A stretch of DNA of 64,000 nucleotides. It comes from a bacterium. Lineage in GTDB: Bacteria > Zixibacteria > MSB-5A5 > WJJR01. The translations under genes and the position numbers were made by a program. The notes under the pieces were generated by a model. The model saw only the letters and a list, made by a program, of their open reading frames with translations. It was not told the origin of the DNA and did not search any database. Shown one piece after another: positions 3,001-49,190 of the stretch; within the stretch, counting starts at the first letter, position 1, and each line of letters opens with the position of its first letter. Where the stretch lies: assembly GCA_021813505.1 (NCBI GenBank), contig JAKAKI010000073.1, positions 45,851-109,850 of the forward strand, in the 5' to 3' direction.

Positions 3001-5029
3001 GGGTGGAATCGATCCTCTGGGCAAGGAGATCGTCATTGCTGGCGAACTCCCGCTGGGATCCACGATTGTCACCAACGTTCCCTACGCGCCGCCCATCACG
3101 ATCATGCGCGGCGAGGGCATTCGCATGATTGTCCGCGACCTGGCGATCTCCGGAGGTTGGGAGGCGGCGGGAATTCTGATTTCCGGGGCGTCACCCTCGA
3201 TCATCAATAACCTCATCACGACCAACTACGGTGGCGGCTTTGGCGGAGGAATACGAATTCAGGGCGGAGGCGGACCGGTGATCCGGGGGAATCGAATCAC
3301 AGGGAACTCCGCGCTGCAGGCGGGCGGCGGGATTTACGTCGGAACAGGAACCTCGGCGATCATCGATCAAAACGTGATCACCGGGAATCAAGCCGGCAAT
3401 GGGTCGGCGCTCGCGCAGGAAGGTGGAGGGAATCTGCTGGTGATCGGAAATACGATGTCAGCAAACTTCGCATCGGCCACACCAGGAGGCGCTGTCTTCA
3501 CTTCGCAACGGTCCGGCGGGGGCTCCAATTTCCGCTTCGAGCACAATACGATCGCCGGAAACACCTCATGGGCGGGACAAGGCGCTGGAATTGTCTGTGA
3601 CTACTCAAACGGCGGTGAGATTACCAACAACATCATCGCCTTCAACAATGGCGGGTACGGCGTTTATGCCTGCGGGAAAGCGGGCGCCTCACCTGTGGTT
3701 CAGTTCAATGATCTCTGGTGGAATGATTCCGGACCCTACGGATGTGTCACGCCCGACACCGGCAACATCTTTGCGGATCCCCGCTTCTGCGATACCTCGC
3801 TACAGGATTTTCAACTGGCGGCAAACTCGCCCTGCCTGGGGAGTGGCGCCGATAGCACGACCATCGGGGCACTCGGACAGGGTTGCGCTACCGCCTCTCC
3901 CCTCATGCCCGTCTGCAAGGACATTAGAGTTGATCCGCCGAGACCTCCCGAGCATGTGGTGAATAAGACGCCCCAGATTCAGTGGACCTACACCGATCCG
4001 GGCTCCCGGCCGCACCAATGCTCGGAAATTCAGGTGGGCACAGACAATGATTGGACTCTGGTGGAAATGTGGGCACCGCCGGTGATTTTGGGCCCCCAAA
4101 CGGCCATCATTTACAGCGGCCTCCCTCTTTCCGAGGGCCAATGGTACACCGTCCGCGTACGCGTGCGGAACGACACCCTGTGGAGCAATTGGGTTCAATC
4201 TGCGTTTCGCCTGAATTCCAAGCCCACAGCTCCCGCGCTCTATACCCCGGGGAACAATGTCGCCCTGGCAACGGCACGGCCCACGCTGACCATTCAGGCA
4301 TCCGCCGACGGGGACAATGACTCGCTGACGTACACATTCGTCGTGTACTCCGACAGCACCCTCAACACCCCGGTGGATTCGGTGGCGGGGACATCCTCAC
4401 TGATCTGGACGACCGACTCGCTGACCCGCGAGAACCAAAAGCACTGGTGGCGTGTGCGGGCGAACGATGGATTCGAATCGAGCGACTGGTCCCCGGTTCG
4501 GTCGTTCTGGGTCAACGCGATCAAAGAACCGCCGACGGCATTTAATCTGCGCACCCCGAACGATGGTGTCGCCCTCTACACGCCCCATCCGGCATTTGCG
4601 TGGGACCCGCCTGCCGATCCGGATCCGCGCACGGTGTATTCATACACGATCACGATTTCGCTCAATCCAACTTTCACGTTCACGCAGGATATGTCGACAT
4701 TCGCGACGTCGTTTACGTGGCCCGAATCGTTGTACATTCGCGCCACTTACTGGTGGAGGGTGAGCGCGGATGACCACAACGGCGACACGATTACGTCACC
4801 GGTTCGGCGATTGGTGCTCGCGTGGCCTGGCGATTTGACGGGTGACCGGCTGACAGATGTCTTTGACGTGATTATGTTGATTGGGTACGCGTTTGGCGGT
4901 GGCGATGCCCCCAGCCCATTGAATCTGGGGGACGTGAATGGAGACTGCGTGATCGACGTTCTGGATGTCATTGATCTGATCCGTTACGTTTTCGAGGACG
5001 GGCCTGAGCCAGTCGCGGGATGCCTGTGA
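32..5029 (+). CDS. Giant secreted tandem-repeat protein (1665 aa) with three ~480-aa units (right-handed beta-helix plus Fn3-like modules) and a C-terminal double dockerin-like module. It is possibly 5'-partial: the frame is open back to base 2 and a GTG start is used.
   Basis: Long ORF. The motif 'PxxQPTIQxGxDxAxxxDxVLVAPGTY' recurs at aa ~1, ~480 and ~960. 'NNI(I/V)xNS' and 'DYNDLWNNHP(D/N)YE' beta-helix rungs repeat. 'YWWRARV' Fn3-like cores repeat. The C-terminus has 'GDVNGDCVIDVLDVIDLIRYVFEDGPEP'. There is no in-frame stop between base 2 and base 32. Confidence 0.8.
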   Translation: MIHVPSDQPAIQAGIDASSSGDVILVAPGTYSENIDFKGKTIVLISEAGPASTILRPADNWLPTVSIQGYVGEMPEISGFTLTGSRSRVIVIGSSASPTISRNVFVDNPNVMDVAIYSDGANPLILFNLFVRSANISAVGIYNGSATIVNNTFDGNRRGFFTISGAGVARNNIVTNSLEYGVYGNFTEFDYNDIWNNHPDYEGGAISGPHDISQNPAFQAPSSLDYTLQPGSPCIDAGDPSPQFNDPDGSRSDMGYASLGGLPRAAIPHLVQEDPLHVLGHTPTFEWVFVDNANLQSAYEIEVGTDLSWDVVEMWSTGVVVSAASSVVYSGLPLVDGAGYYWRIRLSNGTAWGDWKTSFFRMNSPPSVPVPNRPLDGASARVKALRLFVNNSTDAEADPLVYDFEIYSDPAMTLLVGSQTGVTQTASPTSSAPFPPLPDFPEYWWRARVSDGFQYSDWTAPLRFTPRTGPILVPSEQPTIQSGLDVAMQNDTVLVAPGTYREYLTLNLRAITLMSTGGPSLTTITTQSGPNLYLSNIQGETPFSLKGFTIAGNGTGVAAENSRFTIEECNFEGRGYLVHFSGYSSNGTIRGCRFISAQPGSGIGILVDNLATLVLARCLFVKLNYGVLMSSGVATLTNNTFDQNQCGVLSQYATVTARNNIIANSVNAGFASGSISSDYNDLWNNHPNYESGAVAGAHDIDLDPRFRDPAGLDYSLMPISPCINAGDPDPQYLDPDGTRNDLGAYPLLYGLPTSAYLNLGPENANHVVSHTPSFHWSFLDSVGSQVGYELEVGTDTIWNAAELWATGPVIAPDSVVPYSGAPLTDGSTCYWRLRLYNGTIWGGWREAGFHMNSIPSVPLADSPTGGVRTCPARLRLYIDISTDAEADRLGYDFQIFGDAALANRITSQSNVPEDGIPTGSQEFDLPGQPADYWWRARAYDGYEHSAWTVAEHFVIRPALLHVPADWPTPAAAIAASCSGDTVLLAHGTYSGGIDPLGKEIVIAGELPLGSTIVTNVPYAPPITIMRGEGIRMIVRDLAISGGWEAAGILISGASPSIINNLITTNYGGGFGGGIRIQGGGGPVIRGNRITGNSALQAGGGIYVGTGTSAIIDQNVITGNQAGNGSALAQEGGGNLLVIGNTMSANFASATPGGAVFTSQRSGGGSNFRFEHNTIAGNTSWAGQGAGIVCDYSNGGEITNNIIAFNNGGYGVYACGKAGASPVVQFNDLWWNDSGPYGCVTPDTGNIFADPRFCDTSLQDFQLAANSPCLGSGADSTTIGALGQGCATASPLMPVCKDIRVDPPRPPEHVVNKTPQIQWTYTDPGSRPHQCSEIQVGTDNDWTLVEMWAPPVILGPQTAIIYSGLPLSEGQWYTVRVRVRNDTLWSNWVQSAFRLNSKPTAPALYTPGNNVALATARPTLTIQASADGDNDSLTYTFVVYSDSTLNTPVDSVAGTSSLIWTTDSLTRENQKHWWRVRANDGFESSDWSPVRSFWVNAIKEPPTAFNLRTPNDGVALYTPHPAFAWDPPADPDPRTVYSYTITISLNPTFTFTQDMSTFATSFTWPESLYIRATYWWRVSADDHNGDTITSPVRRLVLAWPGDLTGDRLTDVFDVIMLIGYAFGGGDAPSPLNLGDVNGDCVIDVLDVIDLIRYVFEDGPEPVAGCL

Positions 5030-5268
5030 GGCATGCGGCTGCTGGTGGGAAATCGCCTCGCGCTAGGGATCTGATCGCAGTAATCAAGCATGCTTTCAGT
5101 TATGGCCCGTCGGCGGCATCGCGCTGCCCGTAGACGCCGTTTGTGGACTTTCGCCTCCCCCCTCCCATGCCGGACGGCCGGCGGCCGCATCCAGATTCCA
5201 TTGTCTACAAGTCAACTCGCCTGCGTACCAGAGGTGTGACAGATTCCACCGATTGGGAGGGTAGACAC

Positions 5269-6009
5269 ATGGGAAGTTTCGCCACCGTCCGGCGTTTGAT
5301 CGCTCTGGCCCTGGTCGTGCCGCTTGCGCTCGTCAGTTGCCAAAAGAAGTCGGCCTCGAATTCGAACGGAAGCGCCGAATGGGATATCGACGCGAACGGA
5401 ATTCCGAAGTTTGTCCAAACGAACTACACCGACCTGGGCGCTATTGACCGGATCTCGCGCTTCCGTTCCGCGTATGGCCACGACTACACACATGACGACC
5501 ACTTGGAGCATTGCCGGAGCATGAAGCATTACTTCTGGCCCAAAGGTGGCGACCCTGGATGGTCACACAATCCTTCGTGGACGACAATCCCGATTCGGTC
5601 TCCGATCGCGGGAACAGTGACACGGCTGATGCCCGAGTTCGCCGGAACACAGATTTGGATCGGCTCGGACGCGTACCCGGCGTTCGAATTCCGCATTTTC
5701 CACGTGGGCATCTCCCCCGCGCTCCTCGAGGGGGACAAGGTTTCCGAGGGGCAGGTTCTGGGACATCATGGCGGAGACGAAACCATGATGGATATCGCGG
5801 TGCGGGTGGCGACGCCAAGTGGATGGCGGTTGATTTCGTACTTTGACGTCATGACTGACGGGCTATTTCAATCCTACGTCTCGCGTGGCGTCATCTCCCG
5901 CAGCCAGCTCATAATCACAAAGGCGGAGCGAGATGCTGATTCACTGACATGCTCCGGGGAACAGTTTATCACGACAGGCCAGTTGGAGAACTGGGTGCCG
6001 TTAAATTGA
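5269..6009 (+). CDS. Hypothetical lipoprotein (247 aa).
   Basis: ATG at 5269 is preceded by GGGAGG. The signal peptide plus lipobox reads 'LALVSCQ'. Coding periodicity is present. No recognisable catalytic motif. Confidence 0.6.
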   Translation: MGSFATVRRLIALALVVPLALVSCQKKSASNSNGSAEWDIDANGIPKFVQTNYTDLGAIDRISRFRSAYGHDYTHDDHLEHCRSMKHYFWPKGGDPGWSHNPSWTTIPIRSPIAGTVTRLMPEFAGTQIWIGSDAYPAFEFRIFHVGISPALLEGDKVSEGQVLGHHGGDETMMDIAVRVATPSGWRLISYFDVMTDGLFQSYVSRGVISRSQLIITKAERDADSLTCSGEQFITTGQLENWVPLN

Positions 6010-7520: not shown

Positions 7521-9236
7521 CTAACGAACCAGCAACATCTTGCGCGATAGGGTCTGGGCGCCTGAGGTCATGCGGGCGAAGTAGACTCCGGAAGCGAGCG
7601 GCTGACCCGACCTGTTGTCACCGTTCCACACAAGTTCATGCGTTCCGGAGTCTGCGCTACCGGAAAAGAGTGTGTTCACCATCCGACCGAGGATGTCGTA
7701 GACGGAAACGGTGACTCGCTCGCGTCCGTTGACAACGAACCGAATCACTGTTGACGGGTTGAACGGATTCGGCATGTTCGTCAGGTCGAGCGCGTATCGG
7801 ATGCTTCCCGGGGCAATGTCATCGAAGACGCCAGTGACGAGCGGAACCGTGAGATCGCACGACATCGACGCGGCAGACGCCGAGATATTGGTCACGGTGA
7901 CGTAACTCGGCGCACCGGAGTACGCGTTGGAACTGGGTGAGGTCGAGGCAGAGAAAGTCGCAGCGAGGGATGGTCCAGGGTAAGGATCGGCGGAGTCCCC
8001 CAGATTGATGTTCTTTTCCATCTGCCATAGATTGTCAGCTTGCTGCAGCGCCACCAGGTAATTTCCATTGGATGTATGGCCGGGGTACCACTCGGACATG
8101 TTCGACATGCGGCTTTCATCAATACGCCAGATGAGCAGCCCCGAGCCTGGAAGCGCGGCGTCGTAACCCAGCTTCTGCCGATTCTCCAGCAGAAAATACT
8201 CGCGTCCTCCCGTGCCCTCGATCGGCAACCGGTAAACAAAGCCCTGAGTCTCGTTGGCAGGGACAACCGCTCCTGCCACGCTGACCATGACATCGAGAGG
8301 CAGGATGATACCGAGCTGATACTTGCACCAGGCGTCGAGGTGGGCGGGTGAATTCCCCAGACGTCCGTTCCAGGCACCCGAGGCCATGAGCGACCACTTG
8401 CCCACGCCACGAGAGCTGCCGTCCAAGTCGTAGAGGTCGGGCAGACCCAACAGATGGCCGATCTCGTGGGCGAACACACCAATCGTTATGTCACCGGGAC
8501 GGTTCCAGAATTCCGGCTGGATCGTGTATGAACTGACATACACGCCGTCGCGCAGGCGGGGCATGATGCCCCACTTGTGTGACCAGATGTCATTGGTGGA
8601 GAAGGTGAATTCGGCCCCACGGCCCGTGTGCACGATGATGATTCCATCGACGAACTTGTCCCCGTCGTTGTCGTAGTCGGCGAAGTTGACGCACGAATCG
8701 ACTTTGTCCACCAGGTCCTCGCAGAGCTTTTGGGTATTGTGGGGATAGACGCCCATCCCGTAGTCCGCGTTGACATAGCTGGTGTAGCTGCTGTCGAGAT
8801 GGTGCCACCCGAGCGCGGAGGGCAAATTCACGGTGGTGATGGTGAGTGTGTGGTAGGTGATTTCATGGTAGAAGTCGCGCACCGAACCGGGATCATCGCT
8901 GAAGATCAGGGTATCGAACACGAGCGCCGGAACTGATGCCGGCTTGTCGGGGAAATCAACACAGATCGCCAGAATGTTGAAGTTGCCCACCCGTCGGATG
9001 CCGGCTGCCGGACCGCCATCGGGCTGATCGATGCCGCGTGCCGCAAACGATGCGCTCATTTGAGAGTAAAGACCGGCGCTGGCGCTAAGACCGGGTACGA
9101 TCGGATGCGAACTGTCGCCAGGGTAGGGCGGCATGGCATTGGCGTTGAAGAAGAGCCCCGACGCGCAGAGAATCAATATTCCCAGAAGACCGCCCGATCC
9201 AATGGGCAAGACACGCAAGCGATGCATTACGGGCAT
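7521..9236 (-). CDS. M6-family (immune inhibitor A-like) zinc metalloprotease with a T9SS-type C-terminal sorting domain.
   Basis: 'VFAHEIGHLLGLPDLYD' matches the HExxHxxGxxD zinc-binding motif of M6 peptidases. Signal peptide present. The C-terminus 'GVYFARMTSGAQTLSRKMLLVR' resembles a Por-secretion/FlgD-Ig tail. Confidence 0.75.
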   Translation of the reverse strand: MPVMHRLRVLPIGSGGLLGILILCASGLFFNANAMPPYPGDSSHPIVPGLSASAGLYSQMSASFAARGIDQPDGGPAAGIRRVGNFNILAICVDFPDKPASVPALVFDTLIFSDDPGSVRDFYHEITYHTLTITTVNLPSALGWHHLDSSYTSYVNADYGMGVYPHNTQKLCEDLVDKVDSCVNFADYDNDGDKFVDGIIIVHTGRGAEFTFSTNDIWSHKWGIMPRLRDGVYVSSYTIQPEFWNRPGDITIGVFAHEIGHLLGLPDLYDLDGSSRGVGKWSLMASGAWNGRLGNSPAHLDAWCKYQLGIILPLDVMVSVAGAVVPANETQGFVYRLPIEGTGGREYFLLENRQKLGYDAALPGSGLLIWRIDESRMSNMSEWYPGHTSNGNYLVALQQADNLWQMEKNINLGDSADPYPGPSLAATFSASTSPSSNAYSGAPSYVTVTNISASAASMSCDLTVPLVTGVFDDIAPGSIRYALDLTNMPNPFNPSTVIRFVVNGRERVTVSVYDILGRMVNTLFSGSADSGTHELVWNGDNRSGQPLASGVYFARMTSGAQTLSRKMLLVR

Positions 9237-13830: not shown

Positions 13831-14790
13831 ATGAGCAATCGACGGCATGCAATGTGGGTTTCAATCATCCTGACCGGAGTGGGCGTGATTTGCGGACTGG
13901 CATTGGTTTCGATGGCAACGAAACCGAAGGAGAATTCTGTGGCTCTCAACAAGCTGACGCCGGAAGAAGAAGCGGTGATCATTCACAAGGGGACGGAACG
14001 GGCCTTTACCGGCAAGTACTATGATTTCAAAGAGAAGGGCACGTACACCTGCAAGCAGTGCGGGGCACCGTTGTATCGCTCCTCCGACAAGTTCGATTCC
14101 GAATGCGGCTGGCCGAGTTTTGACGACGAGATCCCGGGGGCGGTCAAGCGGACGGTCGATGCGGATGGCATGCGCACCGAAATCACCTGCGTGCGTTGCG
14201 GCGCCCATCTGGGACACGTGTTCGAGGGGGAGCATTTCACCGCGAAGAATGTGCGGCATTGCGTGAATTCGATTTCGCTCAATTTCGTTCCGGACAGCGC
14301 GATCGTCAAAACCGAGAAGGCTTATTTCGCCGGCGGTTGCTTCTGGGGCACCGAGTACTTGCTGGAGAAGGCTGAGGGCGTGGTTTCCGCCAAAGTCGGC
14401 TATATGGGCGGACATACAACCAAGCCGACGTACCGCGACGTCTGCGAAGGGAACACGGGACATGCGGAGACGGTCGCAATCGAATTCGATCCGTCCAAGA
14501 CGACCTATGAAAAGCTGGCGCGGCTGTTTTTCGAGATCCACGACCCGACGCAGGCAGATGGCCAGGGACCGGACATCGGCGACCAATACCGTTCGGAAAT
14601 CTTCTATACCGATGACAGCCAGAAGCAAGTGGCCGAGAAACTGATTGGGATTCTGAAGAGCAAGGGCTTGGACGTTTCAACGCAGTTGGCCAAGGCCGGT
14701 CCGTTCTGGGAGGCCGAGAAGTACCACCAGAATTACTACGACCAGAACGGCCATCGGCCGTATTGCCATTCGTATCAAAAGCGGTTTTGA
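13831..14790 (+). CDS. msrAB: Bifunctional peptide-methionine sulfoxide reductase MsrB-MsrA fusion with an N-terminal membrane anchor.
   Basis: MsrB motifs 'CGWPSF' and 'RCGAHLGHVFEGE' with CxxC pairs. MsrA motif 'GGCFWGTEY' and 'GHAETV'. N-terminal TM helix. Confidence 0.9.
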   Translation: MSNRRHAMWVSIILTGVGVICGLALVSMATKPKENSVALNKLTPEEEAVIIHKGTERAFTGKYYDFKEKGTYTCKQCGAPLYRSSDKFDSECGWPSFDDEIPGAVKRTVDADGMRTEITCVRCGAHLGHVFEGEHFTAKNVRHCVNSISLNFVPDSAIVKTEKAYFAGGCFWGTEYLLEKAEGVVSAKVGYMGGHTTKPTYRDVCEGNTGHAETVAIEFDPSKTTYEKLARLFFEIHDPTQADGQGPDIGDQYRSEIFYTDDSQKQVAEKLIGILKSKGLDVSTQLAKAGPFWEAEKYHQNYYDQNGHRPYCHSYQKRF

Positions 14791-15552: not shown

Positions 15553-16785
15553 GTGGCTATGAACAGAGAAAACACGACACGAGTAAAAGGTGATCTTGCG
15601 CGAAAACTCCTTCTGATCTCGATAACTTGCGCGTCATTGTGCGCCAGTGCGAGCGCGCAAATGCCTGCAGATTCGGCTGCTCCCTCTCCCCCGCCGCGCG
15701 CCCTCATCAATCTGACCGCGAATGATTGGGGAATCGTCATCGGGAACGCCCCACGCGTCCATGGGTTGCGATTCAACCTCAGCGACCGCGGAATCGAGCA
15801 GATCGATGGATTGAATGTCACCTTCTGGAAGCCGCGTGAGACGTCACGGGGCGTGATTAATGGGGTTGCGCTCGGTTTGCTCGCACCGGCCGCCCGGCAC
15901 ATCAACGGCATTTCGCTCGGTACGATCGCGACTGTCGGCGAGTCATCCTTGCGCGGCATCAGCGCCGCTGCGATCGCCACCGTCTCGGAAGGTGTGATCC
16001 AGGGTGTCAGCGCGGCGGGAATCGCGGTTATAGGCGAACAACGTGTCACCGGAATCACAGCGGCGGGTATAGCGGTTATTTCCAACGGGAAGCTCATTGG
16101 GGTCTCGGCCTCCGGATTGGCAACAATCGGTCGGACCGGCCTTTGGGGAGTGCATGCAGCGGGGCTTGCCACGGTATCGGAAGGTGATGCGTTCGGAGTC
16201 ACGGCCAGCGGACTGGCGACGGTTTGCGAGGGCGGCCTGCATGGCATCGGCGCCGCCGGGCTGGCGATTGTCACCGAGGGCGCAGTGGACGGCGTTGCCC
16301 TGGCAGGATTGACCACAGTTTGCGATGGCACGATGACGGGCATTGCGATCGCCGGCGGCGTGATTATCACTGAACAGACAATCCGCGGGCTCGCGGTTGG
16401 GGGAATTGCACTGCCGTCACGTGTTGACGATGAGTCCAAACGGTGGTCGCTGCCTGGGATCAAGGCTCGCGAAATCCGGGGACTGGCGGTTCATGGGATG
16501 AACATTCAGGTGAGCCGGCGGGCTTCCGGAATACTGGTTTCCGGCATCCACCTTTCCGGGGATGTCCTGGCCGGAATCGGCGCGGCCCCGGTGATCAGGG
16601 CGGGAGAACTGAAGGGGATCGGAGCCGGGCTGGTGAATCTTGGGGCGCGGCGCCAGACCGGGATCATGGTGGGCCTGCTCAATAGCACGCCAGAACTTCG
16701 GGGAATCCAAGTGGGTCTATTGAATCATGCTGGGAATAATCCGAAGGGCTTCCAGTGGCTGCCGGGGATCAATTTGCACTTTTAA
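15553..16785 (+). CDS. Secreted protein built from ~12 tandem 16-residue Gly/Ala-rich repeats (G[IV]xAAG[IL]A[TV][IV]xEGxxx), ending in Phe.
   Basis: Signal peptide 'ITCASLCASASAQ'. Strict 16-aa periodicity between aa ~130 and ~330. Degenerate 'GIxVGLLN' repeats follow. C-terminal 'INLHF'. Confidence 0.6.
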   Translation: MAMNRENTTRVKGDLARKLLLISITCASLCASASAQMPADSAAPSPPPRALINLTANDWGIVIGNAPRVHGLRFNLSDRGIEQIDGLNVTFWKPRETSRGVINGVALGLLAPAARHINGISLGTIATVGESSLRGISAAAIATVSEGVIQGVSAAGIAVIGEQRVTGITAAGIAVISNGKLIGVSASGLATIGRTGLWGVHAAGLATVSEGDAFGVTASGLATVCEGGLHGIGAAGLAIVTEGAVDGVALAGLTTVCDGTMTGIAIAGGVIITEQTIRGLAVGGIALPSRVDDESKRWSLPGIKAREIRGLAVHGMNIQVSRRASGILVSGIHLSGDVLAGIGAAPVIRAGELKGIGAGLVNLGARRQTGIMVGLLNSTPELRGIQVGLLNHAGNNPKGFQWLPGINLHF

Positions 16786-16916
16786 AGGCATTCGTTAGTC
16801 GAGCTCGCTATCCTCGTGACATTGAGCACGATAGGCCCTTCGGCGAAGACGGCAATAGGCCTGCCGGCGTGGGGAATTGCCGGGGAAAATCTGGCCTAAA
16901 TCGATGATGTTTGCAA

Positions 16917-16944
16917 TTGCGGAAACCTGTCAAAAGCGTATAAT
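16917..16944 (+). promoter_or_regulatory. Putative sigma70-like promoter (TTGCGG, 16-nt spacer, TATAAT) upstream of the DUF1573 gene.
   Basis: A perfect -10 TATAAT lies at 16939-16944 in an unusually AT-rich intergenic patch. RBS 'aaggaagtgg' precedes ATG 16989. Confidence 0.35.
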
Positions 16945-16988
16945 AGCCAAGTTGTGAAGTCGACATTGACCTCAACCAAGGAAGTGGA

Positions 16989-17819
16989 ATGCGATTAAAA
17001 GAATGGTCACTGGTGGCAGCCCTTCTCGCGGGTGTCAGCGCGCCAGCATTGGGCGCAGCGGACAGCACGAAGGCGGCTCCGCCAGCAGGTGCCACGGATA
17101 CCGCGAAGGCGGCACCTATCAGGAAAGCGAAGATTGACGTACCGCAGACAACATTCAACTTTGGGTACGTGCCGCAAAATTCAAGTATCTCGCACGTGTT
17201 CTGGGTCAAAAGTGTCGGTGAGGATACACTCCGAATCACCGACGTGAGGCCTGGGTGAGGATGCACAAAGGCTCCGCTTAAGAAAAAGGAGCTTGCTGTC
17301 GGAGACAGCACTGAAATCGAAATCATCTTCTCGACGGGACATTACAGTTCACGTGTCACGAAGAGCGCCAGCATTGCGTGCAATGCACAGGGGAATCCGC
17401 CGGGGTTGTCATTCCAGGCATGGCCGATTTTCAATCAGGACTCTCTGAAGTTGTTCAAGGTCGAACCGTTCCAGATCGCACTGGATTCGACCAAGCCCGC
17501 GGAGCAGAAGAAGGGCATTGAATTCCAGGTCAACATCAAGAATGTCTCTTCCGAGCCCATGGAGTTCAGCCTGGTATCGGTTCCGACCGAGTTTGTCAAA
17601 GTTGACATGCCGGGCGGACAGATCAAGCCGGGCAAGGAAAAGTCGATCAAGGTCAAGTTTGACAAGAATATCGCCAGTGAAACCTTCACCAAGTCTTTCA
17701 CGATTGAAGCCAACGACGCGGCGAAGACCCGGATTACCGTGCCGGTCACCAAGAACCAGCGCTGGCTCGCACCTGGGGAGCAGCCTCCGGCAACGGGTGC
17801 AAATATCAAGACGAAATAA
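16989..17819 (+). CDS. DUF1573-family secreted protein with a single in-frame TGA (17256-17258) at the position of the first Cys of the paralog's CGC motif. Candidate selenoprotein; alternatively a nonsense pseudogene.
   Basis: ORFs 16989..17258 and 17406..17819 are in the same frame (both mod 3 = 0), with only one stop between them. It aligns end-to-end with paralog 18112..18870: 'DVRPG-TGA-GCTKAPLKKK' versus 'DVRPG-C-GCTKAPLKKK'. A hairpin 'aggctcc...ggagctt' downstream of the TGA is absent from the paralog. Confidence 0.55.
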
Positions 17820-17902
17820 CCATTCGCGGTTCACATTGCTCTATTCGGGCGCATTGTTTCCTGACGGTGCGCCCGTTGCGTTTGGCCCCGTTTATGAAGG
17901 GC

Positions 17903-18020
17903 GTGTTGACGGGCAGACAAGAGTGTCTGCCCCACTCTTGGTCATGGAAGTTTGAGTCTCTCAGTGGCGCCCACTGCCGTCCGCGCGCTCATCTCCAGGT
18001 GCTGCGGTTTTTCACCGCAC
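17903..18020. repeat. MITE-like palindromic element, family B copy 1 (GTGTTGA... terminal inverted repeats).
   Basis: 'gtgttgacgggcagacaagagtgtctgccccactcttggtcatg...ctctcagtggcgc' is the reverse complement of copies at 43175-43312 and 49065-49170. Confidence 0.7.
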
Positions 18021-18111
18021 CCTTCAGCGACATTCAGAAGCCGGTCAAGGCCTGGTGGCCTGCGCTCGTGAGTTCGTATTCAAAAACCTTCATCGAAGGA
18101 GCAGGAAGGCA

Positions 18112-18870
18112 ATGACGTACAAGATCCTCATTCTCTCGGCTGCGTTCGCGTGCGGGATGGCAGCGTCGGCGGCCGGTGCCGACTCGACCAACGCGACCGG
18201 CCCGAAGCTGGAAGTTCCGGAGACGAACTTTGACTATGGGTACACGGTCCAAAACGCGAAGATCGCGCATGTGTACTGGCTGAAGAACAGCGGGACCGAC
18301 ACGCTTAAACTCAAGGATGTGCGCCCCGGATGCGGATGCACCAAAGCTCCCCTCAAGAAAAAATCGCTGGCGCCCGGCGACAGCACTGACGTCGAGGTCG
18401 TATTCTCGACCGGATCTTACAGTATGTTTGTCCGGAAACCGTCGACCATTCAGTTGGAATCCCCCGGTGACACGCCGCCGATGCTGGCCTTTACAGCGTA
18501 TCCGACGCCAAAACCGGACTCGCTGCGGCCACTGACCTTCACTCCCATGGGCGTGAATCTGGATTCGTCCAAGAAGACCTCCAACATGCAGGCGTGGAAT
18601 TTCAGAGTTCGTGTGAAGAATTGGTCCAACCATGACCTTCGAATCCACCAGGTGTCTCCAGCGCTTTCGCAGATCAATATTGAGGCGCCCAATGGCGCTA
18701 TTGCCGCCGGTTCAGAGGCCACAGTGCGCATCAGAATCGACGCGGAATTGGCTGATTCCACTTTTGCGAAGTCGGTGACATTCGAGGTGTCGGACTCGCT
18801 CCACACGCGATACACGTTGCCGATTGGGAATGAGCCGCCCGCGACGGGCCGCACCCCGGTTGCACATTAG
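18112..18870 (+). CDS. DUF1573-family secreted protein (paralog carrying an intact CGC motif).
   Basis: Signal peptide. 'NFDYGYTVQNAKIAHVYWLKNSGTDTLKLKDVRPGCGCTKAP' aligns with the upstream copy. RBS 'ggagcaggaagg'. Confidence 0.75.
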   Translation: MTYKILILSAAFACGMAASAAGADSTNATGPKLEVPETNFDYGYTVQNAKIAHVYWLKNSGTDTLKLKDVRPGCGCTKAPLKKKSLAPGDSTDVEVVFSTGSYSMFVRKPSTIQLESPGDTPPMLAFTAYPTPKPDSLRPLTFTPMGVNLDSSKKTSNMQAWNFRVRVKNWSNHDLRIHQVSPALSQINIEAPNGAIAAGSEATVRIRIDAELADSTFAKSVTFEVSDSLHTRYTLPIGNEPPATGRTPVAH

Positions 18871-20760: not shown

Positions 20761-21903
20761 ATGCTTTACCGCAAGATGCCGGACGCCGATCCTGCCCTGT
20801 CGATTCTGGGCTTCGGATGTATGCGGCTGCCGGTGGACGGTGGCGGGCATATCGACGAGCCTGGAGCGACCGAGATGCTCCGCTGGGCAATCGACCACGG
20901 TGTCAACTACGTGGACACGGCTTATCCCTATCACAACGGCGAGAGCGAACCGTTTGTGGGCCGGGCATTGCAGGATGGTTATCGCAGCAGAGTCCAGTTG
21001 GCAACGAAACTGCCGAGCTGGCTGGTGACGACCCGCGCCGACATGGACAAATATCTCGATGAGCAATTGAAACGGCTTCAGACCGAGCAGATCGACTTCT
21101 ACCTCGTCCACTCCCTGAATCAGGCTTCTTGGGAGAATATGCAACGTCTGGGGATCGGCGAGTTCCTCGACAGTACTATCGCCGACGGACGGATTCGCTG
21201 CGCCGGATTCTCATTCCATGACCAGGCTGGTGTCTTCAAGAAGATCGTCGACGGATACGACTGGACCTTCTGCCAGATTCAGTACAACTTCATGGACGAG
21301 GATTACCAGGCCGGTACCGAGGGGCTCCGTTACGCGGCCGCACGCGGACTGGGGATCGTGATTATGGAACCATTGCGGGGCGGCGTGCTGACGCGTGAGG
21401 TCCCGGCCGTTCAGGACGTATGGAACCGTGCGGCGACGAAGCGCACACTCGCCGACTGGTCACTGCGTTGGATATGGAACCATCCCGAGGTCCATGTCGT
21501 GCTCTCCGGAATGGGCACGTTGGAGCAGGTTCGCGAGAATATCGCCTCCGCCGGCACTGCTACTCCGTCGTGTTTGTCCACGGAGGAACTGAATCTCTTT
21601 GACCTTGCCCGCGAAGAGTATCGCAAGCGAATCAAGGTGCCTTGCACCTCGTGCAATTACTGCATCCCCTGCCCATCCGGCGTGAAGATACCGACATGTT
21701 TCGAGATCTATAATCTGGCTCACATGTATGACGCGGCGGAACGCGCCAAGGGCTTGTATGAATTCATGCTGCGGGCAGGGACATCCAATGGCGCCGGGTT
21801 CGCCTCGCTGTGCGAGAAGTGTGGCGATTGCGAAGCGCTCTGCCCGCAGGGGATTCCGACACGAGAGCGGATCGGTGAGGTGGCGGCGTACTTTGGAAAA
21901 TAG
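20761..21903 (+). CDS. Aldo/keto reductase with a C-terminal 2x[4Fe-4S]-type Cys cluster domain.
   Basis: AKR TIM-barrel N-terminus. C-terminal 'CTSCNYCIPCPSG' and 'CEKCGDCEALCPQG' ferredoxin-like motifs. Confidence 0.8.
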   Translation: MLYRKMPDADPALSILGFGCMRLPVDGGGHIDEPGATEMLRWAIDHGVNYVDTAYPYHNGESEPFVGRALQDGYRSRVQLATKLPSWLVTTRADMDKYLDEQLKRLQTEQIDFYLVHSLNQASWENMQRLGIGEFLDSTIADGRIRCAGFSFHDQAGVFKKIVDGYDWTFCQIQYNFMDEDYQAGTEGLRYAAARGLGIVIMEPLRGGVLTREVPAVQDVWNRAATKRTLADWSLRWIWNHPEVHVVLSGMGTLEQVRENIASAGTATPSCLSTEELNLFDLAREEYRKRIKVPCTSCNYCIPCPSGVKIPTCFEIYNLAHMYDAAERAKGLYEFMLRAGTSNGAGFASLCEKCGDCEALCPQGIPTRERIGEVAAYFGK

Positions 21904-21925
21904 GAAGCAGGACAAAGGACCAAGG

Positions 21926-23875
21926 ATGGTAAGGGCATCGACCGTACTCGCAGTTGTATTCGCTTCGGTCCTGGCATTTGGGCCCTTGAAGGTCCTGGCG
22001 AAACCGGGTGACGTCACGCATGTCGTTTCGCATGCCAATCGCAAAGTCGTGACCGATCCCTCGAAGGGATTCAACGCCTACCGGAACTGGGCGGTATTCC
22101 CGTCCACGGCCACTCCCTATCGCAGAATCGTGCTGTCGGTGACTTATCGCTGCCCTGACAGTCTCCGATGCGGCGAGTGGGATTACATCGACGGCATCTT
22201 TTTGCGGCGCACCGGGGGGGGTGTTTCGCCGTCACGCGACATCGAACTGGCGCGCATGATCTCCCCTTACGGCAGCCGGTTCGGGCCGTCGTGGCACTTC
22301 ACCTGGCAGACGGATGTCACCGACTTCGGGTTCTTGCTGCACGATTCCGTTGAAATAGAATTCAATCACGGCGGGTACGAAAGCAACACCGACCGCGGCT
22401 GGCTGATCACGTTGGACTTTGCCCTGACTGAGGGACCTCCGGCGCTGCCGATATTGGGCATGGACACGCTCTGGAATGGTACGTTCCCGTACGGGGATAC
22501 ATCCAAACCCATCGAGCAACTGCTGCGCCCAATTCCGTTTACCGATCGATTCGAAGCCCAACGGGGGCGTTTGCGAATTGTCCAAACCGGACACGGGATG
22601 GACGACTCGGAGAATTGCGCGGAATTCTGCAGCAAGACGCGGCGCGTGCTGCTCGACGACTCAGTGCGTGAGGAACGTCAGATTTGGCGCCGCTGTGGGA
22701 CAAACCCGCTCTCCCCTCAAGCCGGCACCTGGCTCTATGACCGGGCGAACTGGTGCCCCGGCTCGATTGTCTTCCCTGACTTGGTCGATTTCGCGATCGA
22801 GCCCGGCTCGACGCACACGCTGGCCATCGCGATGCAACCGTACGCGAACACCAAGACGCCCACGGCCAACTACTGCATCCATTCTTACCTCTTCTATTGC
22901 GGCCAGCCTCGCGCCGCACACGATGTCTCGGTGCTGGACATCATCGCACCCAGTGCGAGAGAAGAATGGGGACGGTTAAACCCGATCTGTGGCGATCCCC
23001 TTATCCTCATCAGGAATAGCGGGAGTGAACCATTGACATCTGTCGAGGTACGTTACCAGATCGACGGCGGAGATCCGCAGCGGTATCACTGGAGAGGAAT
23101 TATTCCTTCGCAGCGGGACGCGGCCATCAGTCTGTTAGGCTCATGGGGGGCGATTGAAGGCCACACGTTCGAAGTCACGCTCAGTTCGCCTGACAGTGCC
23201 ATGGACGAATACCCGGCGGACAACTCAATGACGTCGATCATCGCTGCTACACCGGAGTATCCCACTCAATTCGTTCTGGCTTTCCGCACCAACAACGACT
23301 CAACCCAGAATGGCTACGAGCTGGTCGACGCCCAGGGGAATACCGTCTTGAAGCGTGACCCCAGATCGCTTCGGCCGCGAACGAATTGTCGGGACACGCT
23401 AACACTAGCACCCGGATGCTACCAGTTGATTTTCGCCGACACGGTCGGCGATGGACTCGATTTCTGGGCGAATCCCGATGGCGGCTATGGCTATGTGCGC
23501 CTGTTGGATATGCAAGATCATCTCATTCATTCCTTTAACTCCGACTTCGGCAGTGAAATCCGCCATTCGTTCCGCGTGGGACTCGATGTGCACCCCCCTG
23601 TTCCGATCGACACGTTACCGCTGGTGAACCCGTTCCCGGTTCGTAACAAGGGGATCTTTTCGGTGGAGCTCTTCCAGAACGAGCCGGGTGAAATCGCGCT
23701 AACGATCACGGATGAGAGCGGCAGGAAGACGGTATTTCGGCGGTCGTTCCCCGACATCAAGGAAGCGACAGTTCAGCTCGACATCAGCGACGTGCCGGAT
23801 GGGGTCTACTTCCTCACGGCAACGTCTGCCGGACACTCGGTGACACGGCGAATCCGCGTCAAGCACGGCGACTGA
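21926..23875 (+). CDS. Secreted hypothetical protein (649 aa) with a T9SS-type C-terminal sorting domain.
   Basis: ATG 21926 with RBS 'aaggaccaagg'. Signal peptide 'VLAVVFASVLAFGPLKVLA'. The C-terminal ~80 aa, 'GIFSVELFQNEPGEIALTITDESGRK...GVYFLTATSAGHSVTRRIRVKH', is Por_Secre_tail-like. The upstream extension overlapping the AKR gene was rejected. Confidence 0.65.
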   Translation: MVRASTVLAVVFASVLAFGPLKVLAKPGDVTHVVSHANRKVVTDPSKGFNAYRNWAVFPSTATPYRRIVLSVTYRCPDSLRCGEWDYIDGIFLRRTGGGVSPSRDIELARMISPYGSRFGPSWHFTWQTDVTDFGFLLHDSVEIEFNHGGYESNTDRGWLITLDFALTEGPPALPILGMDTLWNGTFPYGDTSKPIEQLLRPIPFTDRFEAQRGRLRIVQTGHGMDDSENCAEFCSKTRRVLLDDSVREERQIWRRCGTNPLSPQAGTWLYDRANWCPGSIVFPDLVDFAIEPGSTHTLAIAMQPYANTKTPTANYCIHSYLFYCGQPRAAHDVSVLDIIAPSAREEWGRLNPICGDPLILIRNSGSEPLTSVEVRYQIDGGDPQRYHWRGIIPSQRDAAISLLGSWGAIEGHTFEVTLSSPDSAMDEYPADNSMTSIIAATPEYPTQFVLAFRTNNDSTQNGYELVDAQGNTVLKRDPRSLRPRTNCRDTLTLAPGCYQLIFADTVGDGLDFWANPDGGYGYVRLLDMQDHLIHSFNSDFGSEIRHSFRVGLDVHPPVPIDTLPLVNPFPVRNKGIFSVELFQNEPGEIALTITDESGRKTVFRRSFPDIKEATVQLDISDVPDGVYFLTATSAGHSVTRRIRVKHGD

Positions 23876-42895: not shown

Positions 42896-43174
42896 TGGTT
42901 TAAGATCACTGCGCGAACTCTCCGATTGTAGAGGCGGCCCTGTGTGGCCGCCCGTTTCATTGTACTCAACAACCGGGCGCCCACACAGGGGCGCCCCTAC
43001 GCGCGTCAGGCGTCAAGGAATCTGCTGTTGAAGTTGTCTGCGCGCAGAGCCAAACAGCGGATGCTTCGTCGCTTCGCTCCTCAGCATGACATCCGCCGGT
43101 CGTTCATTACAACCTCGCGTGTGATATAGCATCCGTGGCTGCGAGTTGCTGACGTGTGGCCGCGATCTCCGGGG

Positions 43175-43312
43175 CGTGTTGAAAATACCGTGCATCTGGA
43201 GACGAGAGCGCGGACAGGAGTGTCCGCGCCACAGGAGTGTCCGCGCCACTGAGAGACAAGATTTCCCGTGACCAAGAGTGGGGCAGACACTCTTGTCTGC
43301 CCAGTTTTTCAA
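43175..43312. repeat. MITE-like element, family B copy 2, with an internal 17-bp duplication.
   Basis: 'gtgttgaaaa...gacgagagcgcggacaggagtgtccgcgccaca ggagtgtccgcgccact...gagtggggcagacactcttgtctgccc...ttttcaaca'. Confidence 0.7.
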
Positions 43313-48948: not shown

Positions 48949-49064
48949 GAACCCATCCCTCCCGAGTCATAACCACGATAAACGGAAGTCATCCCCGCGA
49001 AAGCGGGGATCCAGTCGCAGGTGTGTCCCTGGATTCCCGCTTTCGGGTGTGTTGAACAGACCCA

Positions 49065-49170
49065 GCATCTACTGACGAGAGCGCGGACAAGAGTGCCCGC
49101 GCCACTAAGAGAAAGGAACCTTCATGACTATGAGTGGGGCAGACACTCTTGTCTGCCCGGGTCTTCAACA
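49065..49170. repeat. MITE-like element, family B copy 3.
   Basis: 'gtgttgaacag...gacgagagcgcggacaagagtgcccgcgccact...gagtggggcagacactcttgtctgccc...ttcaacac'. Confidence 0.7.
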
Positions 49171-49190
49171 CGCCTTTCGCGGGAATGACA

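What the first reader, a model, noticed from the sequence alone, without database searches (positions are those of the whole stretch)
16917..18870. Tandem DUF1573 paralogs (UGA form and Cys form) separated by a MITE insertion
Two ~250-275-aa DUF1573 genes sit head-to-tail. One carries the TGA form of the motif and the other the Cys form. The 300-bp spacer holds a family-B MITE (17903-18020). A Sec/Cys paralog pair side by side would be a natural experiment on selenium-dependent redox chemistry in a family of unknown function. DUF1573 proteins are usually secreted and their conserved C-G-C motif suggests thiol-disulfide or metal chemistry. The near-consensus TATAAT at 16939 suggests the upstream copy has its own promoter.
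Basis: partly seen in the sequence, partly recalled or inferred. Interest (0 to 1): 0.6.

Follow-up and report, generated by a model that had tools for sequence, protein, structure and literature searches.

The report
Selenocysteine and cysteine DUF1573 gene pair
Two neighbouring genes of a Zixibacteria genome encode exported proteins of unknown function, one with selenocysteine (read from an in-frame UGA with a conserved RNA signal) and the other with cysteine at the same site; the selenium form of this family has been predicted since 2007, so this is a well-supported new member, not a new kind of thing.

Summary
Gene 1 (16989-17819, 276 codons) and gene 2 (18112-18870, 252 aa) are both DUF1573 proteins, 41% identical. 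Gene 1 has an in-frame TGA (17256-17258) where gene 2 and most homologues have the first Cys of P-G-C-G-C-T.

The TGA is not an artefact. It is identical in four assemblies of the same organism and present in 42 distinct orthologues. Both halves of the ORF are under purifying selection. TGA is the commonest ordinary stop in the window.

Only the TGA forms carry two conserved hairpins just downstream, with frozen synonymous sites and one covarying pair. This is a SECIS-like element.

The pair is an old, conserved arrangement (Sec-Cys, often Cys-Sec-Cys), not a recent duplication.

The spacer does hold a small repeat with inverted ends: three copies in the window, none in the closest relative's spacer.

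DUF1573 with a U-G-C motif (OS_HP2) is already listed as a predicted bacterial selenoprotein family. The Zixibacteria clade scores below NCBI's OS_HP2 cut-off, so it is a divergent new member.

The protein models as a signal peptide plus two PapD-like Ig domains. Redox chemistry outside the cytoplasm is the most likely function, but that is inferred. Selenocysteine machinery could not be checked.

The parts
16900..16951 (+). Conserved upstream block containing TATAAT (16939-16944) and a weak -35-like TTGCGG (16917-16922). Possible promoter of gene 1.
   Evidence: Read from the sequence. The block is nearly identical in L010 while flanking intergenic DNA diverges. The consensus scan does not call it a promoter.
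16989..17819 (+). Gene 1: DUF1573 selenoprotein candidate of 276 codons. It has a signal-peptide-like N-terminus, a linker, and two Ig-like domains. The stop is TAA at 17817-17819.
   Evidence: AF2 model with pLDDT 87.5. Purifying selection on both sides of the TGA against L010.
17256..17258 (+). In-frame TGA, the predicted selenocysteine codon (residue 90) of the motif P-G-U-G-C-T-K-A-P.
   Evidence: It aligns with Cys of gene 2 and of about 100 homologues. TGA is conserved in 42 distinct orthologous sequences.
17257..17330 (+). SECIS-like RNA element inside the ORF. P2 hairpin: 17270-17275 pairs with 17288-17293. P3 hairpin GCUGUC-GGN-GACAGC: 17295-17300 pairs with 17304-17309. Tentative closing helix P1: 17257-17262 pairs with 17325-17330.
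   Evidence: The element is present in Sec forms only. Synonymous sites are frozen and one pair covaries (UA, AU, GU).
17846..17875 (+). 13-bp hairpin followed by a T-rich tail just after the gene 1 stop (terminator-like).
   Evidence: It is conserved with G-U variation in L010.
17896..18025 (+). MITE/REP-like repeat with inverted ends and an internal perfect palindrome, GGGCAGACA-AGAG-TGTCTGCCC.
   Evidence: It is absent from the orthologous spacer of L010.
18112..18870 (+). Gene 2: Cys-form DUF1573 paralogue of 252 aa. The motif C-G-C is at 18331-18339.
   Evidence: It is identical to database protein P0037, which is found on independent assemblies.
43172..43302 (-). Second copy of the spacer repeat.
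49045..49178 (-). Third copy of the spacer repeat.

Best explanation
**Shown.** Gene 1 is one continuous, selected reading frame. Its UGA-90 sits at the position of the first Cys of the family's invariant C-G-C motif. It is followed by an RNA element found only in the UGA forms: hairpin P2 starts 11-12 nt after the UGA, and the sequence-invariant hairpin P3 (GCUGUC-GGN-GACAGC) abuts it.

**Inferred.**
- This element is a bacterial SECIS that recruits SelB and Sec-tRNA(Sec), so UGA-90 is read as selenocysteine.
- The product is exported through its signal peptide. It is a periplasmic or surface protein of two PapD-like Ig domains, with a U-G-C motif at a strand break of domain 1.
- Sec normally replaces only catalytic redox cysteines, and a periplasmic C-G-C is a proven redox active site elsewhere (MauE). 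So the most likely chemistry is thiol/selenol-disulfide exchange through a Sec90-Cys92 selenenylsulfide.

**The partner gene.** Gene 2 is an anciently diverged Cys paralogue with the same architecture. The two belong to a conserved 2-3 gene DUF1573 array (N-C-G-C, G-U-G-C, G-C-G-C types). They are more likely distinct partners or specialised forms than interchangeable isoforms.

**The spacer.** The MITE-like repeat is a late, lineage-specific insertion downstream of a terminator-like hairpin.
For: **One selected reading frame.**
- DUF1573 membership and the UGA/Cys alignment.
- The TGA is identical in four assemblies from different samples.
- It occurs in 16 of 17 genome loci, and in 42 distinct sequences overall.
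- Against L010 there are 32 synonymous and 17 non-synonymous codon changes spread across both halves. 39 of 56 differences are at third positions.
- TGA ends 23 of 37 long ORFs in the window, so there is no codon reassignment.

**RNA element specific to Sec forms.**
- Third-position entropy falls to 0 at codons +10 to +14, +16 and +17 in Sec forms only.
- Where Cys forms encode the same A-V-G-D-S peptide, they mostly use other codons.
- 98.4% of cells are paired. Pair 18/35 covaries: UA 30, AU 4, GU 3.
- Mean folding energy of the P2 region is -10.0 kcal/mol in Sec forms and -4.1 in Cys forms (p = 1.6e-13). For P3 it is -8.7 against -2.2 (p = 1.1e-15).
- One Cys copy (L016_3002), nested in the Sec clade, keeps a fossil of the element.

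**Known family.** NF041425 'OS_HP2 family (seleno)protein' is the best NCBIfam hit. DUF1573 with U-G-C is listed in PMC9312934 and PMC13188914, from PMC1976440.

**Redox precedent.** A periplasmic C-G-C motif is the active site of MauE (bioRxiv 10.64898/2026.03.05.709764).

**Old, conserved arrays.**
Against: - No selA, selB, selD or tRNA-Sec lies in the window: ARAGORN found no tRNA at all, and the rest of the genome could not be searched.
- No Rfam family matches the element.
- Covariation rests on one pair, plus register shifts of P2. P3 is invariant, so it is supported by conservation, not by compensatory change.
- P3's loop lies 42 nt after the UGA. From my recollection of the published bacterial SECIS model (loop 16-37 nt downstream), that is outside the range. 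P2's loop does not always begin with G. Which hairpin binds SelB is therefore unresolved.
- There is no biochemical evidence for any DUF1573 function.
- Genomic neighbours are not redox genes and are not conserved with the window.
- The fold has no catalytic analogue.
Confidence: 0.75

Rival explanations
1. The C/U-G-C site binds a soft metal or metalloid (Cu(I), Hg, As(III), Zn) and does not catalyse thiol-disulfide exchange. The proteins would then be periplasmic metal-binding or chaperone modules.
For: - From my own knowledge, not tested here: CXC motifs bind As(III) and soft metals in ArsR-type proteins.
- Several predicted bacterial selenoproteins in the same lists are metal-related: MerT-like, a cation ATPase with UxxC, and YHS (PMC9312934).
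- Ig-like periplasmic metal chaperones exist.
Against: - None of the loci examined has metal-resistance or transport genes next to the array.
- The His of S-T-G-H-Y, invariant in Sec forms, is not conserved across the family (K, S, R, Q, M and others). There is therefore no conserved third ligand.
Confidence: 0.2
2. The two genes are a selenium-dependent and a selenium-independent isoform pair. The Cys copy would back up the Sec copy when selenium is scarce.
For: - The two have the same architecture and motif and lie next to each other.
- A terminator-like hairpin between them would allow separate expression.
- Sec/Cys isoenzyme pairs are known in methanogens (reference [53] in the reference list of PMC9312934; the rest from my own knowledge).
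Against: - The two are only 41% identical and belong to distinct old clades.
- Most genomes keep a third, different Cys paralogue as well, with an N-C-G-C motif. That fits non-redundant partners better than backup copies.
- No expression data exist.
Confidence: 0.15
3. The TGA is a sequencing error, a pseudogene lesion or a true stop that splits two small genes. The pair would then be an ordinary duplication.
For: Gene callers split or miss the gene. In GCA_027457245.1 only a 122-aa C-terminal piece and a spurious antisense ORF are called. Database homologues appear as 166-173 aa fragments.
Against: - The same TGA occurs in four assemblies and in 42 distinct orthologues, down to about 36% identity.
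- Purifying selection acts on both sides of it.
- The RNA element is specific to the TGA forms.
- The family is a known predicted selenoprotein family.
Confidence: 0.02
4. The C-G-C is only a structural disulfide of an adhesin-like or scaffold Ig module, with no catalytic role.
For: The PapD-like/ASH fold is typically a protein-protein interaction module. Both proteins also give a sub-threshold NCBIfam match to the 'choice-of-anchor D' domain.
Against: - From my own knowledge: an 11-membered CXC disulfide is strained and is not a typical structural disulfide.
- Sec substitution with a costly dedicated SECIS, kept across a deep clade, is characteristic of reactive catalytic residues (principle stated in PMC9312934).
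Confidence: 0.05

Closest known systems
OS_HP2 / DUF1573 selenoprotein family (NCBIfam NF041425; Zhang & Gladyshev 2007, PMC1976440; reviews PMC9312934 and PMC13188914)
   Same: - Same Pfam domain (PF07610).
- Same U-G-C motif, with Sec at the first Cys.
- Function unknown, and the family is predicted by computation only.
   Different: - The window protein and four other Zixibacteria-type Sec forms score 74-78 bits on NF041425, against a cut-off of 100.
- OS_HP2 was first reported from deltaproteobacterial Olavius symbionts (PMC1976440).
- Here the protein has two domains and sits in a conserved Sec/Cys paralogue array.
- The two-hairpin element is described here. I found no earlier description of it in the papers I read.
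Escherichia coli fdhF-type bacterial SECIS (my own knowledge; general description in PMC9312934)
   Same: - A stem-loop inside the ORF immediately 3' of the UGA.
- P2 begins 11-12 nt after the UGA, like the minimal fdhF hairpin.
- P3's loop begins with GG.
   Different: - There are two adjacent hairpins, not one.
- The invariant hairpin (P3) is the distal one, and its loop is 42 nt from the UGA.
- No Rfam model matches.
PDB 2qsv, an uncharacterised Porphyromonas gingivalis protein, and PapD-like/ASH/MSP Ig domains (HYDIN, CEP192, VesB/VesC, pilus chaperones)
   Same: - Two tandem PapD-like beta-sandwich domains.
   Different: - The best match (2qsv) is itself uncharacterised, and none of the matched domains is described as a redox or catalytic module.
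- Sequence identity is 19% or less.
MauE periplasmic C-G-C active site (bioRxiv 10.64898/2026.03.05.709764)
   Same: A Cys-Gly-Cys motif that faces the periplasm. It is shown by mutagenesis to be required for disulfide-bond formation, so it is a functional analogue of the motif chemistry.
   Different: - MauE is an integral membrane, DsbB-like protein and is unrelated in fold and sequence.
- No MauE gene was seen next to the DUF1573 arrays.
Sec/Cys isoenzyme pairs, such as the methanogen [NiFeSe]/[NiFe] hydrogenases (reference [53] in the reference list of PMC9312934; the rest from my own knowledge)
   Same: Paralogues in one genome that differ by Sec versus Cys at the reactive residue.
   Different: In those systems the Cys forms are known to be regulated by selenium. 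Here the paralogues are deeply diverged, their regulation is unknown, and a third paralogue type is usually present.

Membership tests
DUF1573 (Pfam PF07610) | HMM score above the gathering threshold (26.1 bits). | tested here: met
   Gene 1 scores 103.8 bits and gene 2 scores 80.3 bits.
DUF1573 (Pfam PF07610) | Conserved C-G-C-T motif in the N-terminal Ig-like domain. | tested here: met
   Gene 1 has P-G-U-G-C-T-K-A-P and gene 2 has P-G-C-G-C-T-K-A-P. C90, C92, T93, K94, A95 and P96 are at least 90% conserved across 80 homologues.
OS_HP2 family (seleno)protein (NCBIfam NF041425) | Score at or above the curated cut-off (100 bits). | tested here: not met
   The scores are 75.8 (gene 1) and 66.1 (gene 2) bits. 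Four other Zixibacteria-type Sec forms score 74-78 bits. The proteins are related to this subfamily but fall outside it as NCBI delimits it.
Bacterial selenoprotein gene | An in-frame UGA aligned with Cys in homologues, with conserved coding sequence on both sides. | tested here: met
Bacterial selenoprotein gene | A SECIS stem-loop immediately downstream of the UGA. | tested here: met
   Hairpins P2 and P3 are conserved in Sec forms only, with one covarying pair. The fit to the published consensus geometry is only partial, and the SelB-binding hairpin is not assigned.
Bacterial selenoprotein gene | selA, selB, selC (tRNA-Sec) and selD present in the same genome. | not testable with these tools
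   None is in the 64-kb window: ARAGORN found no tRNA and nothing comparable was seen.
Bacterial selenoprotein gene | Selenium incorporation shown by 75Se labelling or mass spectrometry. | not testable with these tools
   This needs an experiment.
MITE / REP-like small repeat | Short, non-coding and present in several copies, with terminal inverted repeats. | tested here: met
   Three copies of about 130 nt share an invariant 27-mer (none expected by chance). The ends are GGCGTGTTGA/TCAACACGCC.
MITE / REP-like small repeat | Target-site duplication and evidence of mobility (an empty site). | tested here: inconclusive
   The element is absent from the spacer of the 96%-identical relative L010. 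That spacer is otherwise too diverged to define an exact empty site or a duplication.
Sigma-70-type promoter at 16939 | -35 and -10 hexamers with 16-18 nt spacing. | tested here: inconclusive
   The -10 is a perfect TATAAT. The best -35 matches 3 of 6, so the scan does not call it. The block is conserved in L010. The promoter rules of this phylum are not known to me.

The most novel reading that the evidence does not exclude
The conserved 2-3 gene DUF1573 array (N-C-G-C, G-U-G-C and G-C-G-C paralogues) is a self-contained, selenium-using thiol/selenol relay outside the cytoplasm. It would be built on PapD-like Ig domains and so form a class of periplasmic CXC oxidoreductase without a thioredoxin fold. 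Its SECIS would also differ from the classical single hairpin, using a spacer hairpin (P2) to present an invariant distal hairpin (P3) to SelB.
Probability: 0.15. Interest if true: 0.65.

Novelty: new member of a known kind. Interest (0 to 1): 0.3.

Why it matters
- It extends a computationally predicted selenoprotein family (DUF1573/OS_HP2), whose function is unknown, to Zixibacteria-like lineages. There NCBI's OS_HP2 model misses it, and gene callers split it or replace it with spurious ORFs.
- Sec at the first Cys of C-G-C, kept by a dedicated RNA element over a deep clade, is the best available clue that the DUF1573 motif is a reactive centre, probably redox. That gives a concrete starting point for biochemistry on a widespread domain of unknown function.
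- The 42-sequence set defines a compact two-hairpin recoding element that could improve SECIS models.
- Nothing here overturns current understanding.

Tried and rejected
**Searches that found nothing**
- Rfam over the whole window, and permissive Rfam scans of the UGA region and of the spacer.
- A tRNA search of the window for tRNA-Sec.
- A systematic scan for other in-frame TGA read-throughs in the window. Only 17256 has a selenoprotein-like context.
- A PDB sequence search with gene 2.
- A plasmid-collection search with the spacer.
- Literature searches for Zixibacteria plus selenocysteine or selenoprotein found nothing relevant.

**Hypotheses dropped**
- That His118 (S-T-G-H-Y, invariant in Sec forms) is a third ligand. 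The position is variable across the family.
- That a conserved neighbour would reveal the function. Contexts differ between lineages:
  - lexA, an ABC-2 transporter and GWxTD in most Sec-array loci
  - an ECF sigma operon in some Cys-only genomes
  - the ccm operon in one Calditrichaeota genome
  - a histidine/aromatic ammonia-lyase and a repeat protein in the window

**Left unresolved**
- The exact empty site and target duplication of the spacer repeat. The L010 spacer is too diverged.
- Helix P1 is only tentative. Its 3' arm encodes the conserved I-I-F peptide, so pairing there may be a by-product of coding.
Full report
**1. What is in the sequence**

The region holds two co-directional genes.
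- Gene 1 runs from ATG 16989 (Shine-Dalgarno AAGGAAG at 16978-16984) to TAA 17817-17819. It is one frame of 276 codons, interrupted only by TGA at 17256-17258.
- Gene 2 runs from ATG 18112 to TAG 18868-18870 and encodes 252 aa.

With the TGA read as Cys for the search, both proteins pass Pfam DUF1573 (PF07610): 103.8 and 80.3 bits against a cut-off of 26.1. Both also match the overlapping HYDIN/VesB-like Ig model. They are 41% identical, E = 1e-70. The TGA lies exactly opposite the first Cys of gene 2's motif: DVRPG*GCTKAPL against DVRPGCGCTKAPL. A six-frame motif scan finds no other such site in the 64 kb.

**2. The TGA is real and the frame is functional**

- The same sequence, TGA included, is present in four assemblies from different samples: ENA ERZ27237563 and ERZ27237554, and NCBI GCA_027457245.1 and GCA_027457325.1.
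- Gene callers mis-annotate the gene there. They call a 122-137 aa C-terminal fragment and, in some records, a spurious 172-aa antisense ORF.
- In the protein database, most full-length homologues carry C-G-C. A group of 166-173 aa 'proteins' begins just after the motif. These are truncated calls of UGA-containing orthologues.
- Fetching the DNA confirmed this. 16 of 17 DUF1573 loci from a scan of species-representative genomes carry TGA at the motif. With the metagenome loci there are 42 distinct TGA-form sequences.
- That retrieval used peptide patterns taken from the TGA clade. The 16/17 figure is therefore not an unbiased frequency of Sec forms within DUF1573.
- The closest other genome is L010, a groundwater 'Candidatus Zixiibacteriota' MAG with 96% amino-acid identity. 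Against it, gene 1 shows 32 synonymous and 17 non-synonymous codon changes, spread on both sides of the TGA. 39 of the 56 nucleotide differences are at third positions.
- TGA is the commonest ordinary stop in the window, ending 23 of 37 long ORFs with high GC3. The codon is therefore not reassigned genome-wide and must be recoded locally.

**3. A recoding element specific to the TGA forms**

- Downstream of the TGA, the window RNA folds better than shuffled controls (z = -3.0). The matching stretch of gene 2 does not (z = +0.4).
- Across Sec forms, third-codon-position entropy drops to zero at codons +10 to +14, +16 and +17. It is also low at codons -2, -1 and +1. The same codons vary freely in Cys forms.
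- The consensus is CCU GGG UGA GGA UGC ... AAG GAG CUU GCU GUC GGN GAC AGC.
- The peptide A-V-G-D-S is encoded as GCU GUC GGN GAC AGC in 41 of 42 Sec forms. Most Cys forms that have the same peptide use other codons. The exception is L016_3002, discussed below.
- RNAalifold gives three helices:
  - P2, (A/G)GCUCC-loop-GGAGCU(U), begins 11-12 nt after the UGA.
  - P3, GCUGUC-GGN-GACAGC, follows directly.
  - P1, a tentative closing helix, pairs GAGGAU with AUCUUC.
- On 39 distinct sequences, 98.4% of cells are paired, against 38-59% when the partners are slid. Pair 18/35 covaries (UA 30, AU 4, GU 3). P3 is invariant.
- Several divergent members (L024, L049, L056, L068) form P2 in a shifted register with different pairs.
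- Mean folding energy of the P2 region is -10.0 kcal/mol in Sec forms and -4.1 in Cys forms. For P3 it is -8.7 against -2.2 (Mann-Whitney p = 1.6e-13 and 1.1e-15).
- One Cys copy, L016_3002, is nested inside the Sec clade and still carries P2 and P3. It looks like a recent Sec-to-Cys change with a fossil element.

I read this as a SECIS. Which hairpin binds SelB is unresolved. P2 has the classical spacing but a variable loop. P3 is invariant with a GGN loop, but that loop lies 42 nt from the UGA. No Rfam model matches.

**4. Known status**

- The best NCBIfam hit for both proteins is NF041425, 'OS_HP2 family (seleno)protein'. It falls below the cut-off: 75.8 and 66.1 bits against 100. Four other Zixibacteria-type Sec forms score 74-78 bits.
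- OS_HP2 ('Olavius symbiont hypothetical protein 2') was reported as a new selenoprotein in 2007 (PMC1976440).
- The Sec form of this family is therefore known as a prediction. No function or biochemistry is reported for it.
- The Zixibacteria clade is a divergent set of new members that the current NCBI model would not name.

**5. The pair is old and part of a conserved array**

- A neighbour-joining tree puts gene 1 in a Sec clade with the other TGA forms. Two Sec-to-Cys reversions are nested in that clade.
- Gene 2 falls in a separate Cys clade with its orthologues from L010 and L011.
- In a second, more distant group (L021-L026), Sec and Cys forms interleave.
- Most other genomes have a three-gene array: a Cys paralogue with P-N-C-G-C-T, then the Sec gene, then a P-G-C-G-C-T Cys paralogue. 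A divergent lexA gene lies on one side in 8 loci. An ABC-2 transporter and GWxTD-domain genes lie on the other side in 4-5 loci.
- The window lineage (with L010 and L011) has only the Sec-Cys part, in a different context: a 410-aa repeat protein upstream and an aromatic/histidine ammonia-lyase downstream.
- The MAG of L010 also carries a second Sec paralogue in a lexA-type array (L018). The window organism may therefore have another array elsewhere.
- The duplication thus long predates these lineages. The two proteins are unlikely to be simple substitutes for one another.

**6. The protein**

- The AlphaFold2 model (80-sequence alignment, pLDDT 87.5, pTM 0.78) shows a hydrophobic N-terminal helix and a low-confidence linker (residues 1 to about 45). 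Two beta-sandwich domains follow, at about 50-150 and 155-255.
- The U-G-C motif sits at a break between strands 81-88 and 92-94.
- The N-termini (MRLKEWSLVAALLAGVSAPALG-AA and MTYKILILSAAFACGMAASAAG-A) look like Sec signal peptides. This is read from the sequence, since no predictor was available.
- Family-wide, G89, C90, C92, T93, K94, A95 and P96 are at least 90% conserved.
- The His of S-T-G-H-Y is invariant in Sec forms but variable elsewhere, so it is not a general ligand.

**7. Mechanism**

Shown:
- a selected single ORF
- UGA at the position of the family's Cys
- an RNA element specific to the Sec forms
- an Ig-like two-domain fold with a signal-like N-terminus

Inferred:
- SelB-dependent Sec insertion
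- export of the product
- a reactive Sec90-Gly-Cys92 centre that forms a selenenylsulfide

Three points favour redox chemistry.
- Sec/Cys pairs in homologues mark reactive cysteines (principle in PMC9312934).
- A periplasmic C-G-C is the mutationally proven active site of the DsbB substitute MauE (bioRxiv 10.64898/2026.03.05.709764).
- From my own knowledge, CXC peptides mimic protein disulfide isomerase.

Metal or metalloid binding is the main rival. Context gives only weak hints:
- a DUF1573 gene directly upstream of ccmABCDEF in one Calditrichaeota genome
- ECF sigma / hypothetical / DUF1573 operons in three Cys-only genomes

**8. Spacer and regulation**

- A 13-bp hairpin with a T-rich tail (17846-17875) follows gene 1 and is conserved in L010.
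- Next comes a repeat of about 130 nt (about 17896-18025). It has inverted ends and an internal perfect palindrome. Two further copies lie at 43172-43302 and 49045-49178, both downstream of genes.
- The repeat occurs only in the contigs of this organism among the 69 loci fetched. It is absent from L010's spacer. That fits a recent insertion, although no exact empty site or target duplication could be defined.
- TATAAT at 16939-16944 is real and lies in a 52-nt block that is nearly identical in L010. It lacks a good -35 hexamer.

**9. Verdict**

The find is a well-supported new, divergent member of an already predicted selenoprotein family. Three useful details come with it: a two-hairpin recoding element, a conserved Sec/Cys paralogue array, and mis-annotation of the gene in public records. 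Sec machinery and function remain untested. Interest is modest.

Noticed in passing
window 13831-14790 (+): An MsrB-MsrA fusion (SelR plus PMSR domains) with an N-terminal hydrophobic anchor or signal (MSNRRHAMWVSIILTGVGVICGLALVSMA...). This suggests a methionine sulfoxide reductase that works outside the cytoplasm and would need a periplasmic reductant. It lies 2.2 kb upstream of the Sec gene on the same strand.
   Followed up: partly
window 15553-16785 (+): A 410-aa protein with a signal-like N-terminus and about 20 degenerate repeats of G(I/V)xAAG(I/L)A(T/V)(V/I)xEG. It ends in ...GINLHF and has no Pfam match. It is conserved directly upstream of the Sec gene in L010 and L011.
   Followed up: partly
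window 43172-43302 (-) and 49045-49178 (-): Two further copies of the spacer repeat. Both lie in intergenic DNA downstream of genes. The copy at 43172-43302 has an internal 16-nt duplication relative to the others.
   Followed up: partly
L016 2762-3541 (motif at 3002): A Cys-form DUF1573 gene lies immediately after the Sec gene. It is nested in the Sec clade and still carries hairpins P2 and P3. It looks like a recent Sec-to-Cys conversion with a fossil SECIS.
   Followed up: partly
L061, L065 and L067 (genes at about 3800-5750): In three Cys-only genomes, the single DUF1573 gene follows an ECF-type sigma factor and a hypothetical protein of about 220 aa that could be an anti-sigma factor. The arrangement looks like an operon.
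   Followed up: no
L063 and L064 (Calditrichaeota): A DUF1573 gene sits between a signal peptidase gene and ccmABCDEF (cytochrome c maturation system I). That is where a thiol-redox component would make sense, but it was seen in one organism only.
   Followed up: no
L001, L012, L014, L016-L020: A lexA-like repressor gene is divergently transcribed from the DUF1573 array in 8 loci. In L001-L005 a dinB-like polymerase gene lies next to it. It is unclear whether the array is under SOS control.
   Followed up: no
window 7521-9236 (-) and 21728-23875 (+): Two proteins carry type IX secretion C-terminal sorting domains (Por_Secre_tail): an M6 peptidase and a PNGase-F-like protein. This fits an organism of the FCB group.
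   Followed up: no
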